A stretch of 63,824 bases of DNA, counting the filler, from Sphacelaria rigidula (Eukaryota), in the NCBI GenBank assembly GCA_964200075.2. It is 9 parts of 9 records of this genome, joined end to end, with 100 filler letters (N's around TTAATTAATTAA, not from the genome) between each part and the next. Parts side by side here need not be neighbours in the genome. Positions count along the whole stretch, not along the records: positions 35,516 to 42,518 come from CAXNAA020017007.1; 8 more parts are not named here. One strand, written 5' to 3'. Within the stretch, counting starts at the first letter, position 1. Each line of letters begins with the position of its first letter. Made by a program: the position numbers and the translations under genes. This document shows, piece by piece, positions 5,760 to 47,651 of this stretch. The notes beneath the pieces are model-generated. The model worked only from the letters and a program-made list of their open reading frames with translations. It was not told the origin of the DNA and searched no databases.

Positions 5760-6125
5760 TCTGTAAGGTAGGTTTCTCGGTTGCACAGTGCATTTACCCT
5801 GGTATGTTTCGTACTCGACAGGCTCTATGAGTTCTGCAAGCTTCCCATACCCGTATCTTACAGTTCTGAACGTTTTCAGCGCCTCCCACACCGGTACCTG
5901 ACGCTTGTATACGATTCGTGAAACATGTTCACCCTCACCTGCGTGCGGGCATTTACCGTCGTGAATATACCCGATTTCGGGTAAGAGTTTCCGTGTAATA
6001 TCTATACCGTACCCGACAGGTTCTGTGAGATCTTCAAGACCTTCATACCCTACCGAACATATCCGTACATCACAAAAAACAATCTTGTGATATCGTGCGA
6101 TGCTGTCAATTTCATACCATATGTG
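5760..6125. repeat. Degenerate internally repetitive element (ACCCG/TACC/AGTTCTG-type subunits)
   Basis: Recurrent GTACC/TACCCG/GTTCTG motifs. The 5505-6176 ORF translates to repeat-like peptides (LTEPVGYG, YGYGKLAELIEP). Confidence 0.45.
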
Positions 6126-16443: not shown

Positions 16444-16511
16444 GGGTTAGGGTTAGGGTTAGGGCTAGGGCTAGGGGTTAGGGGTTAGGGGTTAGGGGTT
16501 AGGGGTTAGGG
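16444..16511 (+). repeat. Interstitial telomere-like tract (TTAGGG/CTAGGG/TTAGGGG)
   Basis: Directly visible tandem units, well inside the contig. Confidence 0.9.
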
Positions 16512-35137: not shown

Positions 35138-35415
35138 CTGTACAAACACCTCAAGAGACCGGCGGGTCTCGGTGGAAGGCAATCCGGTGGGCAGTAGTTC
35201 ATAAAAGACGAGAACGGCGTCCTACTGAGGAACAAAATTGACATCCTGAAACGGTGGGCTGGATTCTTCCTCACCCTGCTCAACGCCAAATCGCCCACGC
35301 TGGACCCAGCCATCATCGAGGAGGTGCGGCAGCGACCGGCAGCGTCAACCAGACGAGCAGTCCGGGGGATGCACAACTGGAAAGCGCCAGGACACGACTC
35401 CCTTCCTGTGGAGCT
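35138..35415 (+). mobile_element. RTE-like LINE ORF2 fragment (region just before the RT domain), decayed and cut by the contig end
   Basis: LYKHLKR...Q*FIKDENGVLL...ILKRWAGFFLTLLNAKS...MHNWKAPGHDSLPVEL has the typical LINE W..FF..LLN and KAPG.D.LP.EL motifs. It carries one stop and an apparent internal deletion. Confidence 0.8.
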
Positions 35416-35671
35416 NNNNNNNNNNNNNNNNNNNNNNNNNNNNNNNNNNNNNNNNNNNNTTAATTAATTAANNNNNNNNNNNNNNNNNNNNNNNNNNNNN
35501 NNNNNNNNNNNNNNNGTCCCGGCTTTGTAGGGATGCGAGGTCAATGGTCTGATGACTATGGCACGCATGATCATGAGTACATCCCCCCTCATCACCACGT
35601 CCGTCTCGAAAGGGATGCGTGGTCAATGGTCAAACGACTAAGGCAAGCAACAAATAAGTGCGCCCCCCTCA

Positions 35672-37540
35672 TCACCACGTCCCCACAAAGGGATATTCAA
35701 TACGTCTCTCGCCTCCTTTAGAATTCAAGAGACTGAACGGGACAGAAGCCCCTAGCTTGAGAAGCACCCTCTCCTTCTCCTCCTGGGAAATATTGGGCGC
35801 CCCCACGACCCCTCGCAATGTGGTCAGCAGCTCCTGCGTGTACATCGTATTGTTCTTCGTGTTGGACTTCAACGCCGAATTTTTGCCCTGCGTGTTCGTG
35901 GGTTTGATTGCACCATTCCGGGACGGGATCGTATACACCTTTTGCTTTGTTGCGCCCTTTTTGGTCTGATCGCCCAACACGTAACAGGCGATATTATCGT
36001 GGAGCTTCGTCTGAGACACTTCGGAGCATGAAAGAACGGCCGCTGCATGCGGACCACTGAACACTCGCCCGTCTAGCGCATGCAGAACCTCTTTGCCAGT
36101 CGGTTGAAGGCAGGAGTACCGTGTAGCCTCTGATACGCCTGTCACGTGGGGTTCACGCTTGAGGTACAGCTCTCCTGCGGGGTTCCACCCGGCGCCCTCC
36201 CCGAAGAACAGTTGTTCCTTCACTTGTTGTTCTGCCACGTCTCGGCATTCCGCGATAGGAGCAAGCTTTTCCACCGCAGTAGGGGTCTTTTTGTTGACGT
36301 CTTGCTTGAAGAACCTGTTCGCCATCTCCTGCCACTCGTCGAGCCCCACTCTCGCCCAACTCCTGTTGTCTCGCAACGTCACGGAAAATAACTGCTCCGC
36401 GATCTTCAAGTCGGATTCCGGCATCTGCGCCATATGCATGAGGTGAAGGACCACCAGCCACTGGTAACGGTCTTTACCTGTCACACAGAATATGTCTGCC
36501 ATTCGGCGAAGGCCTGCCAGTCGAAGGGGGAAGTTTCCCGTGCGCAGGCCCGTCCGGAACGCCATATACGCTGGATAATAGTGGAGGACGAAGCTCTCCC
36601 ACACTTGGAACCTCTTGTGGTTTGCTGCACGCGCCCGAACCCAAGCTCGAATAGCAGGGATATCTTCCTTCCTCGCATGTGTTTTCACCTTGTTCGCTCT
36701 GTCGCGGAACTCTTGTGCTAACTGCTCAACGGTTTTCCCGAAGGGGTCATGATCGTCATTATATTCGCGTCGCCGACCCTCGGCCGCCGCTGCCGCTGGC
36801 CCAGTACAAGGGGGTGCCACTGATGCGATGTCGGCTGTGGAGTCCGTCCGACTATCACCCACCGCGGCTGGTTCTGCGCAGTCGGTAGGGGATAATTCCA
36901 TGCTGACGGCGGCCGATGCTCCGGCGACGGGGCCGCCTGCTACTTCCGTGCCCCTGACGCCGGCCGGCGCTCTTCCGCTGTCGTCGGTGGACACGAACTG
37001 CACAGGTCCTGATTCTCGGAGGTCTACCAGTCCCGTACTGGCGTGGAAGACGCAGAACACCGGCGCATCGAGGCCCGCGATGCCATGCGTTGCTTGCCAG
37101 GAACAATCCTCCCCACGACACTGGATCTGCCCGGTAACTATGGGGTCGAAAGGTGGAGGGCTCGGCGATCGCAATGGTTGCTGAGGCGTGCTAACGACGT
37201 TCGTTGGCCGCGCAGAACCCGCGACCGCTGCGGCGTGAGAAGCGGACGCCAGGTTATTGCCGAATGGAGGTGCGACCCTTCGCTCATTCCGCATGGGCGG
37301 TACGGGGGTGGAGTGCGCACGTTGTACTCCGGTGGGGGAGTTCGGCGGCACAGGAGTTCCTCCCGCGGCGCCCTGCAGAGGGGCGGCTGATTCCGCGGGG
37401 TCCGGCACTGGCACTGTGGCGGCAGCCGCGGCTTCAACAGCCGACCCCGGCCCATCCCCAGCGTTGGTGTCTTCCATACTGGGCCCACGCTCGGAGTAGT
37501 ACATGGCCACGATTTTGTTCCACATGGCTTCGAAGAACAC
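35672..37540 (-). pseudogene. Largest open segment (622 aa) of the Academ-like transposase, containing an EsV-1-7-type Cys/His motif at ~37019-37120
   Basis: Long GC-rich ORF. CRGEDCSWQATHGIAGLDAPVFCVFHASTGLVDL fits the EsV-1-7 repeat pattern C-x4-C...G...C-x2-H-x3-G(M/L)V(N/D). Confidence 0.7.
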
Positions 37541-40130
37541 GCAGATGGTGTGGTGCGCGACACGGTAGTTGCTAGCCTCCGATGATTTCCTCCCGTCCAG
37601 TCCAAGCGCCTCCGCTACGTATTCGATCCCCGCTCCCCAATATCACTTCATGATCGCCTTCGCCATGTGATATAGGAGGTGCCAGTCACCTACGTATACC
37701 CGGGACCATTGGTATTCGCGGGGATTACTCCGAATGAGGTGGTACATGAACCGAAACGTCTCCTTGTCACCGGCAACCATACACGCAGCAGGCGCGCCCC
37801 TCTCACCCACGCGGCGTATGTCAGCAATGCAGTCAATCGCTGCTTTCGAGTCGGCCCAGCTCTTCGTGCTCCAACTGCATGAAAACGTACTTAAACACTT
37901 GGGGCTCCCGCTGCATCGTTGGTACTGCCTGCGTCGCAATTTCAACAGTGCGGCGGAGAGAGGACTGATGAGGTCGCTGTAGCACAGCGTTGTATATTTT
38001 CAAATCACGACGTAAACCCCGACCCCGTGGTGACAGTATCCGCCGGGTCAAGGGATCATGCGGTAATTTCGCTTTCGTAAGCCATGCACATCGGCATATT
38101 GCGTTTCGACAATCATTTCCCACACAACTCGTGCTATGCTGCCAACGTTGGTGTTGCAGCTGACATTGTCACGTGGGGCGAAGGCGATAGTGTGATCCCT
38201 CCGTGGGGGCGACGAATTGGCATCTACAGGACAATCCAACCCGCCCTACTCCCGCAGAATCCATGGCGGGCAATGCGTGTGCATCAGCGGGGCACTGCGA
38301 CTGTGGGGGTGCAAAGCTGGTACTGACACGCGGGAGACGACGCTGGAGTGGATTGGCGGCACACCCAATCGCAGCCGCCGGAGTTCAAGAAATCGACTTC
38401 GCACGGGTATTCAAACGCAACATACAGGCACAGATAACTCATCTCACCTATCGAAGTTCGAGTTCCAAGCAAGTGTCGATGGAGCCACCCTCGCCTACGA
38501 TCCTTCCCACCGCGCATCGAAAAGCTGCTTTGTCGAACACGGAGAGGTATTTGTCCCATTGCTCGCCATCCATGTGCCAGTGTGGTCCCGTCGTTACATC
38601 TGCGGCCACAAGTTGATCTTGCTTGCGATGGTTCTGTACGAGAGACAGGTCACCGCACGGGGTTTCCACCGCCACGCAAGTGGCAGCCACAGCACACACA
38701 TGCACATCCCCCCCATTAACAGCCATCGTGGCCCGAAAGTCGCAGTTGTCCCAAGGGATCGCAGCAGCTCTTAACGCAAGCGCCACCAGATGCTTGTCCA
38801 ACCTCAACTTCACGAAGTACTGCTCGCGCATGTATCGCATACACTCGGTCGTGCAGAAGCCGTGAGCGGCGACGTAATCTATGACCGTCACAGGTGTGCC
38901 GTGCGCTTTCAAGACCTGCGCCAAATTGAAGTCATGCATCGCCCTGAATTTCCGACCTAGAACAGTTTTCAGGAGATTTTGCACCAGTATAAAAATTCTC
39001 CAAAGCTGCATGTTTCTCTTCCTCTTCTTCCGCAAAGCCTTCTCCCGTTCTATCGATCTATGAATCGTTGCACTGTCACTTGACTCCCCCATAGCGCTGG
39101 TACTTGGCACACCAGTGATCGTTGTTGTCGCGCTCCCCCTGGCAGCGAGCCCCAACCCGGGGTCATCAGCTGGTACCACCACATGGCACATACTGTCAAG
39201 CAAGTCTAACAGTGTCGACGGTGTATCGTGCTCCAGGAAATTTTTCACAGGCCGGATTTTTCTCTCCAAGTCGCCGCATATTTCTCACTCGCGTTCCCCG
39301 ACACGTTATGCAGTTCAGTCGCACGTTCGATGTGTTTCCTGACGATAGATCCGGCCGCTCTCACCAACGCCCGTTTATCCTCCGCGGACCCTTGTGGAGC
39401 TGGGCGTCCAGGAGAGAGACCGTACGTGCGAGTTCTTGTACCCAAGCGCGCATAGTTCTGAGATCCATATCAACTGCCATCGCTACCTCGGGCGCCACCG
39501 CCGAAGGCAGCAGATACACGGACTTTCGTCGGCAATCACCTGCGGCCTCCCCAACCCCGCTCACCTCTTTCATCTTGGCGTGGGCTGTGCCGCCCTTCAT
39601 CACCGTGCCGAAAATCGCCATAGCCTGATCCCGGTTGCGCCGGTCGCCGACAGTCCGGGCCCGTGCGGCCTTCCTAGCTTCTGTCAGCCACGATTGGACC
39701 TCCCCCAGGCTCACTACTCGCCCCGCCTCAAGGTTCGCTATTACTCTCTCGCGTACTTCTACGACGAAGTCCAGGTCGGCAGGGGCAGGATCAAGAGTGA
39801 GGTCTACCGTTCAAGGCGTGGGACAACGCGCGCGAGTGGACTTGGTCTTTTGCCTATCGCTGTTGCGTCTGTATCGCTCGAAGGAGGGCAGAAAACAATC
39901 ATTCCGGCTACACAAGCAATCGGAACTAGGTTGGTACCTCTGCACAAGCACAGCGGAGCACGCGCTACTGCCATCCACACACTGGAGGAATACCTCCGCC
40001 TCTGCAACCCGCGCGGGACCGAGATGGGGCCAGCTTTTTCCTTCGCCGGGCCCGGGTCGATGGCACGCCACGCATAGACGCGATGCAGAGTCGTGTGTTT
40101 TACCACAAGATGAGCACATATATCACTGAC
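35672..40130 (-). mobile_element. Decayed Academ-like (AcademX-type, DUF6589-like) DDE transposase coding region. Upstream low-complexity coding-like sequence may extend to ~41460
   Basis: Colinear motifs across frameshifted ORFs: N-terminal Cys cluster (39811-40119), AAGSIVRKHI, IPWDNCDF..T...G..VH (~38740-38755), AGDKETF (~37760), VGDWHLL (~37680), TGKDRYQW, LDEWQEMAN (~36320-36343) and a C-terminal VPFSLLNSKG. In-frame TGA at 37643-37645 and several frameshifts. Confidence 0.7.
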
Positions 40131-42618
40131 CTTCGACGACGGGGTAGGTGATGCCGCACTCCACGCGACGACAGACCCGCTTCGGTCGTCGACGGCGGCT
40201 GTTTCCGCTAACGGGTTTCGAGTGAGCCGGCGCAGACTGCTCCATCGTACAGCTATCACGGCTTTCGGGATGCCCCTGTGCACCACTGCGTCGCGTCGTT
40301 ACCCTCGTTCGGTCACCGTGTCGTCGATGCCTACCACAACGATATTTGGCGGGTGAGGTTTGCTTTCCCCGATCCCTCATGATATCGCCGCTAGCTCCAC
40401 TCGTTGGCATGGACGTAACCCAATCGTCTTCACACCCCACCGCAGATGCGCTGCCGCCGTCTCGACAAGCTCCTGGGGTGAGGTCAGGCGGAGCAGCACA
40501 AGAAGCCCTCTTCTTTTTTTTATGCAGTTTCGATCTTGATCTCGAGGAGTTGGAGGGTGTCGGTTTCGAAGATCACGGCGACCTGGGTCGCTTGTTGCGG
40601 TGTCCCGAGGGCGTTGAAAAGTCGTCCGGCAACCCAAGTGCAGGCTGAATCGACGCGGTGTATGGGGATACGGGTATTGTAGCCACCCGAGGAGAATGTA
40701 ATGCCTTCAGCGTGTGTTCCTTTGCTCGATCCCTGTGCTGCAATGCAACCTCCTGCTGCCCAGTCCATGTTCCCCATGCGCTACTCACATCCGGTTGGTT
40801 GATCATGTTCCTCTTCCGTCTAGACGCCGATACGTGGGCGTGCGGAGGTGTGCCTCTACCGGACCCAGGCGGGGCCCGTCTTTTATTTTTTTTGGCAGGT
40901 GGAGTAGAAGTCTCCATCTGACAGGGTATCCCGCCCGTAGTTTCACCGCCTTCGCGACTTGTCGTTCCCACGTCGTCGAGGATTGTCCTCTGCGCAGTGG
41001 ACGCCGATAGCTCACGTGAGTTCACCTCCGACGCACAGGAACTAGGTACTGTGTGCGTCGGGCCTTCCCTGGGCGATCGCCTCTCTAGTTTTTCACTCTG
41101 CTAGGTCCGCCGGTCGTCGCCCCCACCCACCGCCCCCTCGGTTTGTATGGGTGCACCATCGACCACCGCGCCTGGCGCCCGAGAGTCACAGAACAGTGCG
41201 ACCGCCCTGTGTTTTTCATACAATTGGGGACTGAGCTCCTCTCCTACTGCGTCTTCGTCACCGACGTGGGCGCCAGCAATTGCCCTCATATTTGACATCG
41301 ACACTGCGGGTTCTACGCCTGTCGGCCCAGAACTTCTCTCGACCACATTTGTGGCATGTGCCGGGCGGGATGACAGCCGCAAATACGCAGGTGTTTCACT
41401 ACCTGCCCGCGTAAGATGCAACAACGCGTATGTGTGCAAGAACTTAGTTCTGTGCAATATCTGACATTTACTGAGTCAGGGTCGGGGAATCTTGTGAATG
41501 TATAACCCTATATATATTCCACGCATGCACACGTCCTGCGTTTGGTTCGAAAGCCGCAGTCATCACCTGAAAGCAAGCAGTGAGGAGCATGCGATCATCA
41601 TCTATCTGCGATAGCTCGCGGGGTTACTACAATAGTGAACCGAAGATGTTCCTACCTAGGGATCGGTTCTGGTGTCGTATGTGAGGCTCGGGCTGCCCTG
41701 GGCGGCGTCTCAGTAGCCGCCCGGACGTCACATCCCGCGAATTAGCCCTAGGGATCCTCCACATCTGCCGCGAGGGTATATATAGGGGGGGGTGGTTGAG
41801 TGGGGAGTTGAACACCAACGCTTCTGATCGAGCGTGTCATCTACCCTGCCGTTCTCATGTCCTCGCCTCCTGTGGCGACGGAGGTATATGTTTTCTGTCG
41901 CGTGAAGCGGTCACGGCGTCCTATCGTGATTCTGAAGTACCATGAAAAATGAGAAGTCGAAATCTATGTCCATGTCAAGGACGGAAATCTCGACCCACGC
42001 CTTGAGTTAGTTATTTGATTCCGGGAGTCAGAGTACTAAATTGAACTCCTGCTCCAGCTCGGGACAGACACTAGGTGCGAGTTGTGCATTCGCTTGTGTA
42101 CAACGCAGGCCGTCGATTTATTACGGCCCCGCTGTTTTCAGAACGTGATGCAGCTACGTCTTTATCATGTTGCTTTATACACACTTGTACTCCATGTAGC
42201 GTTTTTTTTCAAACAGGCAAATCTAAAAAATGAGGTAGCACGATGAAACATGGTTCAAGCCCAAAACCGTGATTTCCCCACACTTTCAGCGATGGTGCCC
42301 AATAACTTTTTTGTCACCCGAACGCCCCTCGATCGCACAGATACTTCTTCTGCGCATTTGACCGACTCTGTGAGCTTACCGCGCCGGCCGGAACCGTCGT
42401 TTCTCCTGATTTCACCCCCCCCCCCCCCCCCCCCCCCCAAAAACAATGGGGGAAGGCCGGATTAGGGAGGCACGAGAAAGATCACCAGGGAGGTGAAATA
42501 GAATGAAAACGGGCTTACNNNNNNNNNNNNNNNNNNNNNNNNNNNNNNNNNNNNNNNNNNNNTTAATTAATTAANNNNNNNNNNNNNNNNNNNNNNNNNN
42601 NNNNNNNNNNNNNNNNNN

Positions 42619-46752: not shown

Positions 46753-46782
46753 TTAGGGTTAGGGTTAGGGTTAGGGTTAGGG
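46753..46782 (+). repeat. Interstitial (TTAGGG)5
   Basis: Perfect telomeric hexamers inside the contig. Confidence 0.9.
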
Positions 46783-47141
46783 TAAGCGTCGGCGTCAGCG
46801 TCTGTTCAAAATAGTAATTTTCCGAGAACGCTATGTCATCCGTTTCTACGCAGTGTCATTCCCGTTCCATGTTATGGAGGCGGTATCTATCAGATTGTGC
46901 CCCCCCCCAGACACACCGCAACTGATGTCTGATGACGCTGAAATTTCCAATATATATTTGCATGATGACGCAGGTGGGTGTTGAAGGAACAGGTTCGGTG
47001 GCGCGAGGCGCTCAGCGCGCTGTGCGGATTTGAACACGGTGATTATCGGCAGGGCACCTTTTTTTTTTTGGCACAATGCATGAAGAATGACGATTGTAAA
47101 GGGTACAAAAGAAACCGGCACGGAGGCAGCACCAAGTCTTG

Positions 47142-47651
47142 CATACGTCGGACAGATCAGCTCCCTGTAGCTCGAACTAGCTCTTTTTTAGCGTAACTCA
47201 TTAGTGAGCTATGAGAGCTACATGGGCTACGCATTGTTTCCTGCGTAAGCTATGAGAACAACATGAGCCACCAACCCGTAGCCCATCCGCGCATGTTTGC
47301 CCACGGTGAGCTGTGAGAGCTACATGAGCAACGCATGTTTGCCCTAGGTGAGTTACCAACCTGTAGCTCATCAGCTCATATTCGCCCCGGGTGAGCTATG
47401 AGAGCTACATGAGCAACGCATGTTTGCCCTGAATGAGCTATGAGAGCTAAAATAGCTACGCACGTGTGTCCTGGGTGAGCTATGAGAACTACATGAGCAA
47501 CGCATGTTTATCCTGGGTAAGCTACCAACTTGTAGCTCATCATTGTGCGTGTACCTTGGGTGAGCTATCGGACGTAACTCACATGTACATGTTTTACTAC
47601 AAGTGAGCTACAGTCCACAGATGAGCTAGCTCATGAGCTGTCCGACGTGTG
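47142..47651. mobile_element. Non-autonomous hAT-like element filled with a ~42-bp AGCT-rich minisatellite
   Basis: TIRs CATACGTCGGACAG / CTGTCCGACGTGTG, with a perfect 8-bp TSD AAGTCTTG at 47134-47141 and 47652-47659. Internal units GTGAGCTATGAGAGCTACATGAGCAACGCATGTTTGCCCTGG. Confidence 0.85.

What the first reader, a model, noticed from the sequence alone, without database searches (positions are those of the whole stretch)
35672..41460. Academ-like DNA transposon in a probable brown alga
Seen: frameshifted minus-strand ORFs join into one long protein with WDNCD, GDKET, GDWH, KDRY and DEWQE..N motifs, followed by VPFSLL..KG.R. Established: Academ transposases (fungal members overlap DUF6589) use this kind of DDE arrangement, and AcademX continues into an XPG/PIN-like nuclease. 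Inference: this is an AcademX-like element cut off just before the nuclease by retro-insertions and the contig end. I know Academ from animals, fungi and red algae/plants and am unsure whether it is described in brown algae.
Basis: partly seen in the sequence, partly recalled or inferred. Interest (0 to 1): 0.7.

Follow-up and report, generated by a model that had tools for sequence, protein, structure and literature searches.

The report
Broken AcademX transposon in brown seaweed
This is a dead, truncated copy of a many-copy jumping gene whose relatives fuse a cut-and-paste enzyme to a DNA-trimming nuclease; the type (AcademX) is known from animals, and I found no paper reporting it in brown algae.

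Summary
Window 35516-42518 is one 7,003-bp contig holding a decayed copy of a multicopy DNA transposon (120 protein matches in the genome). It carries six in-frame stops, frameshifts and two introns, and both ends are lost at G-runs. Sister copies supply what is missing. They have 12-16-bp terminal inverted repeats (CAGTGTTACGCC) and 4-bp target duplications (4 of 8 two-ended copies exact, 2 more 3-of-4). Their transposase matches DUF6589 (2 of 16 sister ORFs above cut-off; 0 of 9 window ORFs). Downstream lies a domain that folds like Exo1/XPG/FEN1 (Z 12-15), then a cysteine cluster. The same two-domain layout occurs in annelid and amphioxus proteins and in an Ectocarpus protein mislabelled 'solute carrier 35'. 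This fits AcademX (nuclease, 3-4-bp duplications). Corrections: part of the 'frameshifting' is an intron; the truncating repeat is non-coding and not shown to be a retroelement; the nearby LINE-like fragment lies on another contig. No paper I could search reports Academ in brown algae, and a curated 2025 Ectocarpus library lists none. Repbase and the defining paper were not available. Verdict: new host lineage for a known, poorly studied transposon type.

The parts
35516..42518 (.). Single contig (G000:C17007) holding the element copy; N spacers on both sides
35663..42426 (-). Remnant of the AcademX-type element. Both termini and the nuclease exon are missing; the full element is estimated at about 12-13 kb from overlapping sisters (inference)
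   Evidence: 85-91% BLAST identity over 1.7-6.5 kb to L021, L025, L027, L033; 88-92% in alignment to three sisters
42211..42426 (.). Inner arm of a ~420-bp palindrome (probable passenger MITE) fixed in this subfamily about 700 bp inside the left terminus. The outer arm and left TIR are lost here at the central G-run
   Evidence: absent from left ends of 5 of 5 older sisters compared
38448..41475 (-). Exon 1 (start not fixed): low-complexity N-terminus, Cys motifs near 40116, first catalytic Asp (WDNCD 38753-38739). Stops at 41103, 40575, 40125, 39813, 38450; deletions near 39394 (43 nt) and 39274 (1 nt)
   Evidence: open as 1,059 aa in L100
37929..38447 (-). Predicted intron 1 (GT..AG, 519 nt)
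   Evidence: splice sites shared with sisters; similarity to older subfamilies stops near 37931 and 38444; weak hint from possible RNA contigs
35713..37928 (-). Exon 2: second catalytic Asp (GD[K]ET), GDWH, KDRY, catalytic Glu region (DE[W]QE..N), VPFSLL. Stop at 37645; 2-nt deletion near 37873; compensating 2+1-nt deletions at 36144 and 36105
   Evidence: DUF6589 matches in sisters
36661..37477 (-). ~270-aa low-complexity insertion inside the transposase core, absent from the L040 and L045 subfamilies
37016..37120 (-). EsV-1-7-like cysteine motif inside that insertion
   Evidence: Pfam PF19114, E 1.4e-4, 22.1 bits, below the cut-off of 25; Cys/His kept in L021, L022, L027
35663..35712 (-). 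Start of predicted intron 2 (donor GC here, GT in sisters); in sisters the next exon begins LGHSNKS and encodes the nuclease
35516..35670 (+). Unrelated high-copy non-coding repeat (two ~85-bp units ending in C-runs) joined at a G/C run; it truncates the element
   Evidence: 1,808 candidates, 43 matches among 40 scored; context

Best explanation
A dead, doubly truncated copy of a brown-algal AcademX-type cut-and-paste DNA transposon. The complete element (~12-13 kb, inferred from overlapping copies) is bounded by short TIRs. It encodes one spliced polyprotein: an N-terminal region, a DDE transposase of the DUF6589 type, an Exo1/XPG/FEN1-type 5' nuclease, and a C-terminal CXC-like cysteine cluster. 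Shown: multicopy family, termini, 4-bp TSDs, domain order, nuclease fold. Inferred: the DDE domain cuts at the TIRs and joins the ends to target DNA with a 4-nt stagger. The fused 5' nuclease then trims the 5' flap or non-transferred strand at the ends or at the gapped insertion junction (about 60% likely; the alternative is processing of the donor break). The cysteine cluster binds DNA. This copy cannot move itself, and the eight two-ended copies found are internal-deletion derivatives mobilised in trans.
For: 120 matches in the genome. Terminal 16-mer: 109 hits versus 4 for the control. 6 of 8 two-ended copies match at 3-4 of 4 flanking bases, versus 1 of 56 non-cognate pairings; permutation p 5e-5. 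All 8 carry pieces of the family's coding exons. DUF6589 in 5 of 16 sister ORFs, 2 above cut-off. The algal transposase profile finds 1,048 proteins; 22 of 24 hits scanned carry DUF6589, 17 above cut-off; named ones include Owenia, Branchiostoma and Ectocarpus. The separate algal nuclease profile hits the C-terminal part of 16 of the long hits at E<1e-3 within the 186-protein session set, and the two groups align collinearly. The sister's nuclease model (pLDDT 73) matches only 5' nucleases in the top 17 rows (Exo1 Z 14.8, XPG 12.2, FEN1 12.0; next unrelated 5.8). PMC10045372 (passage) states that AcademX makes 3-4-bp TSDs and encodes a nuclease.
Against: No window ORF matches DUF6589 by itself (0 of 9). 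No Repbase Academ sequence could be compared; the DUF6589-Academ link is recalled. The transposase model was poor (pLDDT 41.6) and matched nothing, so the RNase H fold is not shown. Nuclease pieces hit no Pfam XPG/PIN model (0 of 14), and Foldseek gave no E<=0.001 (best Xrn2/Rat1, 3.5e-3). 2 of 8 two-ended copies lack a 4-bp TSD (one fits 4 of 5 at 5 bp, one none). No complete intact copy was seen in one contig. Splice joints were not listed directly.
Confidence: 0.9

Rival explanations
1. A DDE transposon with the same architecture that forms a third Academ lineage, or its own group, rather than AcademX proper.
For: Named brown-algal rows fall in one long-branch clade (27 rows, SH-aLRT 93, quick tree). 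Identity to animal proteins is low (14-19% in the nuclease alignment). TIRs are only 12-16 bp, and there are large lineage-specific insertions.
Against: Both domains and the cysteine cluster are collinear with the animal proteins; TSD length fits AcademX; no helicase family appeared in 16 sister ORFs. The tree has no AcademH outgroup and is midpoint-rooted.
Confidence: 0.07
2. A host gene family or an endogenous giant-virus gene (the EsV-1-7 motif and FEN1-like nuclease could suggest a phaeovirus remnant).
For: Introns are present; weak EsV-1-7 motif; the Atlas shows poxvirus G5 and viral XPG clusters at 0.84 and 0.81, lead level only.
Against: Dispersed copies with sharp shared termini in unrelated flanks and TSDs; pervasive decay; EsV-1-7 domains are common in brown-algal proteins, including a Tc1/mariner transposase (PMC12477816, passage).
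Confidence: 0.02
3. The CAGTG termini belong to a Tc1/mariner or Sola element that carries or flanks the gene.
For: Two Ectocarpus Tc1/mariner families have CAGTG-CACTG termini, and Sola families make 4-bp TSDs (PMC12477816 supplement 1).
Against: TA precedes only 2 of 21 left and 4 of 34 right ends; the duplication is 4 bp of variable sequence; all 8 two-ended copies contain this family's exons; the Ectocarpus Sola termini are AACCG and GGCGG.
Confidence: 0.01

Closest known systems
AcademX lineage of the Academ superfamily (Kapitonov and Jurka 2010; Kojima 2020, Mob DNA 11:15). Neither paper was held; known here through a passage of PMC10045372 and from recall
   Same: TIR element, 4-bp TSD, one protein with DDE-type core plus 5' nuclease plus CXC-like cluster; collinear with annelid and amphioxus proteins of that layout
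   Different: Host is a brown alga (recalled range: animals and a red alga). TIRs are only 12-16 bp. Two introns in this subfamily, a ~270-aa insertion with an EsV-1-7-like motif inside the core, a low-complexity insertion inside the nuclease, and a passenger palindrome near the left end
AcademH (helicase-bearing Academ; PMC10045372 and PMC10799480 passages)
   Same: DUF6589-type core (link recalled)
   Different: AcademH makes 9-10-bp TSDs and encodes a helicase; here the TSD is 4 bp and the partner domain is a 5' nuclease
Ectocarpus siliculosus CBJ31386.1 ('similar to solute carrier family 35, member F4', 1,480 aa; P0175)
   Same: Same polyprotein: WDNND, GDEET, GGWH, core, then GEGEL / DTD / SGCDF nuclease motifs; 28% identical to the window's C-terminal 316 aa, E 2e-38
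   Different: Different sublineage (groups with L045); no large insertion in the core; its third motif reads GEIQE; the database name does not describe it
Exo1 / XPG / FEN1 / Xrn 5' nucleases
   Same: Fold (Z 12-15, 234-366 residues aligned, rmsd 3.8-5.2 A); acidic motifs at the expected places by my reading (FEN1 pattern recalled)
   Different: 8-14% identity, fused to a transposase, activity untested; this domain is absent from the window copy

Membership tests
Academ / AcademX | Multicopy element with terminal inverted repeats | tested here: met
   shared CAGTGTTACGCC ends, 12-16 bp. The window copy itself has lost both.
Academ / AcademX | 3-4-bp target-site duplication (PMC10045372 passage) | tested here: met
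   4 of 8 exact 4 bp, 2 of 8 with one mismatch, 2 of 8 not; 1 of 56 non-cognate pairs reach 3 of 4
Academ / AcademX | DDE transposase of the DUF6589 type (link to Academ recalled) | tested here: met
   2 of 16 sister ORFs above the Pfam cut-off and 3 more below it; 0 of 9 window ORFs; Atlas 28 of 30 named hits DUF6589, share of members 10-14%
Academ / AcademX | XPG/FEN1-type nuclease downstream in the same protein | tested here: met
   Fold match in sister L045, where the core's C-terminus and the nuclease share one open frame; also in P0175. Pfam alone found nothing. Absent from the window copy.
Academ / AcademX | C-terminal cysteine-rich (CXC/TCR-like) cluster (recalled) | tested here: met
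   Algal cluster aligns with the animal one; TCR hit in 6 of 24 hits scanned, 1 above cut-off; lin-54 CXC E 9e-5 for the mostly non-algal profile A4
Academ / AcademX | Sequence or phylogenetic grouping with Repbase AcademX entries | not testable with these tools
   Repbase and the defining paper are not held; the tree has no labelled Academ reference
DDE transposases | RNase H-like fold of the catalytic core | tested here: inconclusive
   Model pLDDT 41.6; no Foldseek match
AcademH | Helicase and 9-10-bp TSD | tested here: not met
   TSD 4 bp; no helicase family in 16 sister ORFs; not every locus was scanned
Tc1/mariner | TA target duplication | tested here: not met

The most novel reading that the evidence does not exclude
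Brown algae carry an old, so far unreported clade of AcademX elements, the first in stramenopiles. At least three sublineages coexist in this genome, and one is closer to Ectocarpus copies than to its neighbours, so the split would predate the host genera. The elements use minimal 12-16-bp ends, and one sublineage has an algal EsV-1-7-like finger inside the catalytic core. A near-complete Ectocarpus polyprotein and apparently unbroken exons in L040 would make the open question of what the fused 5' nuclease does testable in a model alga.
Probability: 0.55. Interest if true: 0.55.

Novelty: new member of a known kind. Interest (0 to 1): 0.42.

Why it matters
Academ is among the least studied DNA transposon superfamilies, and the job of the nuclease fused to AcademX transposases is unknown. 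Finding it in brown algae extends it to another eukaryotic supergroup. It also fills a gap in a recently curated Ectocarpus library (no Academ listed) and corrects a mislabelled Ectocarpus protein. The very short ends would make simple substrates for biochemistry. The copy in this window is dead and of no functional interest itself.

Tried and rejected
Pfam on the window's own ORFs: no DUF6589. Pfam and PDB sequence searches with the algal nuclease profile: nothing useful; the mostly non-algal profile A4 gave Exo1 only at E 0.05. Transposase structure: low confidence, no match. Bipartite ends offset by one helical turn (lead e1-7787493): a GACGC word sits at 36-48 in left ends and 53-56 in right ends, but 46-214 of 300 shuffles matched as well, so not supported. 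Palindrome as the element's terminus: rejected, the shared sequence runs about 700 bp further. Retro-origin of the truncating repeat: no RT ORF in 5 loci; identity unresolved. Expression: no RNA holder listed. Three runs guessed to be RNA, from one study, were laid on sister L021; cover in the predicted introns was low and no intron-spanning joint was among the rows shown (328 joints hidden). Word-index homolog searches reached only 1, 18 and 10 proteins. The careful tree did not finish; the quick tree is quoted. More two-ended copies could not be fetched, so the TSD count rests on 8 copies. Papers not held: Kojima 2020, Yuan and Wessler 2011.

Full report
Observation. The window is a string of separate contigs joined by N spacers, and the finding lies on one of them, 35516-42518. 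The copy is dead: stops at 41103, 40575, 40125, 39813, 38450 and 37645, and frameshifting deletions near 39394, 39274 and 37873. Sister L100 has exon 1 open over 1,059 codons, and L021 has exon 2 within an 817-codon open frame, so the pieces are one gene. Two breaks are predicted introns, not frameshifts: 38447-37929 (GT..AG) and one starting at 35712. The splice sites are shared with sisters, and DNA similarity to older subfamilies stops near these points. As a weak hint, a 98%-identical contig in three runs guessed to be RNA (one study) stops matching sister L021 at 5939, one base from the acceptor I count at 5940, and runs on for 317 letters. The joint itself was not listed.

A repeat family. 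The last 342 codons give 120 matches in the genome (118 of 142 candidates scored; not a copy number). The closest three sisters aligned are 88-92% identical. Upstream, copies share sequence for about 1,150 bp beyond 42210 and then diverge at CAGTGTTACGCC. A 16-base pattern for this end has 109 hits against 4 for its control. Left and right ends differ after 12-16 bases (20 and 87 hits for end-specific patterns). Eight fetched loci hold both ends facing inward: four have exact 4-bp duplications (ATCG, CTCT, GGAT, AAGA), two have one mismatch, one fits 4 of 5 at 5 bp, and one has none. Only 1 of 56 non-cognate pairings reaches 3 of 4. All eight are internal deletions of 3.7-7.1 kb that contain pieces of the family's exons. 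No full-length copy was seen in one contig; about 12-13 kb is my estimate from overlaps.

Both ends of the window copy are lost at G-runs. At 35663 it joins an unrelated, very abundant non-coding repeat; nothing showed this to be a retroelement. At about 42426 it ends in the middle of a ~420-bp palindrome that this subfamily carries about 700 bp inside its left terminus. The palindrome is absent from five older left ends and recurs elsewhere, so it is probably a passenger MITE.

The protein. Window fragments match no DUF6589 (0 of 9), but 5 of 16 sister ORFs do, two above the cut-off. A profile of 11 algal pieces found 1,048 proteins. Of 24 hits scanned, mostly long ones, 22 carry DUF6589 (17 above cut-off), six a TCR/CXC hit, and none a helicase. 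Named hits, from 30 looked up, are Owenia, Branchiostoma, Ectocarpus and a green alga, Prasinocladus; most have no name. The D, D, E candidates WDNCD, GDEET and DERQE correspond to the DNxD, GDxKTY and ALDEAHE of the long, largely unnamed hits. Downstream in sisters comes a domain with HAVD, YD, GEGE, DTD and GCDF motifs and a cysteine cluster. A profile of it hits the C-terminal part of 16 of the same long proteins and aligns collinearly with them. The model of this region from sister L045 (43 sequences, pLDDT 73, pTM 0.74) matches 5' nucleases in all top 17 rows of a 48,161-chain search: Exo1 Z 14.8 (273 residues, rmsd 3.8), Xrn1 14.7, XPG 12.2, FEN1 12.0, against 5.8 for the next fold. Foldseek ranked Xrn2/Rat1 first but without E<=0.001. 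The transposase fold could not be shown.

Host and relatives. A protein labelled Sphacelaria rigidula by NCBI is virtually identical to sister L021 in the tree, and Ectocarpus proteins are among the best hits, so the host is a brown alga. Ectocarpus siliculosus CBJ31386.1, named 'similar to solute carrier family 35', is a member with both domains. In a quick tree of 85 rows (only hits spanning the core were kept; midpoint root; no AcademH outgroup), the six rows from this genome and the named brown-algal rows fall in one clade (support 93). This genome contributes three sublineages, one grouping with Ectocarpus (99). That fits old vertical descent but does not exclude transfer among algae, and many rows are unnamed.

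Mechanism. Shown: dispersed copies, TIRs, 4-bp TSDs, domain order, nuclease fold. Inferred from DDE chemistry (established knowledge): excision at the TIRs and insertion with a 4-nt stagger, with deletion derivatives moved in trans. The nuclease most likely trims 5' flaps or the non-transferred strand during excision or insertion. PMC10045372 suggests that the TSD difference between AcademX (3-4 bp, nuclease) and AcademH (9-10 bp, helicase) relates to these enzymes; no activity was tested here.

What is known. Kojima 2020 and Yuan and Wessler 2011 were not held; the 'XPG' label, the DUF6589 link and the host range of animals plus a red alga are recalled. Seen: passages of PMC10045372, PMC5751038, PMC10799480, PMC4455052, PMC12210899, PMC12973397, bioRxiv 2021.09.26.461848 and bioRxiv 2024.02.19.579948 (0 'Academ'). 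For PMC12477816 I saw passages, the first part of section 5, a search of 5 supplements and parts 2-3 of supplement 1: no Academ among the Ectocarpus superfamilies. Its FASTA supplements could not be read, and an unclassified entry could hide the element; bioRxiv supplements were closed. Ten library searches listed no paper that places Academ in brown algae; only listings were seen for most. Repbase itself was not searchable, so 'unreported' is provisional.

Verdict. A real, decayed AcademX-type transposon; a known kind in an apparently new host supergroup. Interest 0.42.

Noticed in passing
L125:190-260 (G000:C15170): A left end and a right end of the family sit back to back, 9 bp apart: a tandem insertion or a reinserted end-to-end junction.
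   Followed up: no
L101:7395 and 7667 (C747); C11819:6920 and 7192: Two right-end termini nested 272 bp apart in two contigs; a subfamily with an extended end or a preferred insertion site.
   Followed up: no
L041:3193-3377, L051:4743-4952, L042:183-520, L120:8054-8404: The ~420-bp palindrome also occurs in or beside other Academ subfamilies, including their second intron; sampling is biased to such loci.
   Followed up: partly
L091:1852-2293, L057:5751-6175: A second ~440-bp palindromic MITE with GGGATTTTACAAA ends, found in several fetched loci.
   Followed up: no
window 35516-35670: The truncating repeat has C-rich ends and internal tandem units, recalling 'unknown7-N1_Ec32' in PMC12477816 supplement 1 (description only, no sequence compared). 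It also sits in C-runs of L074 and L075.
   Followed up: partly
window 35198-35415 (+): Short fragment resembling an RTE-type LINE protein (recalled resemblance) at the end of the preceding contig; unrelated to the element.
   Followed up: no
P0071, P0073, P0114: Some AcademX-like proteins (two from Owenia, one unnamed) carry an OTU protease domain ahead of the transposase.
   Followed up: no
P0156: A green-algal (Prasinocladus) protein has the transposase core and a weak nuclease match, hinting at chlorophyte members.
   Followed up: no
window 47204-47568: Tandem array of a 42/85-bp unit; TTAGGG-like runs at 16444-16511 and 46753-46783.
   Followed up: no
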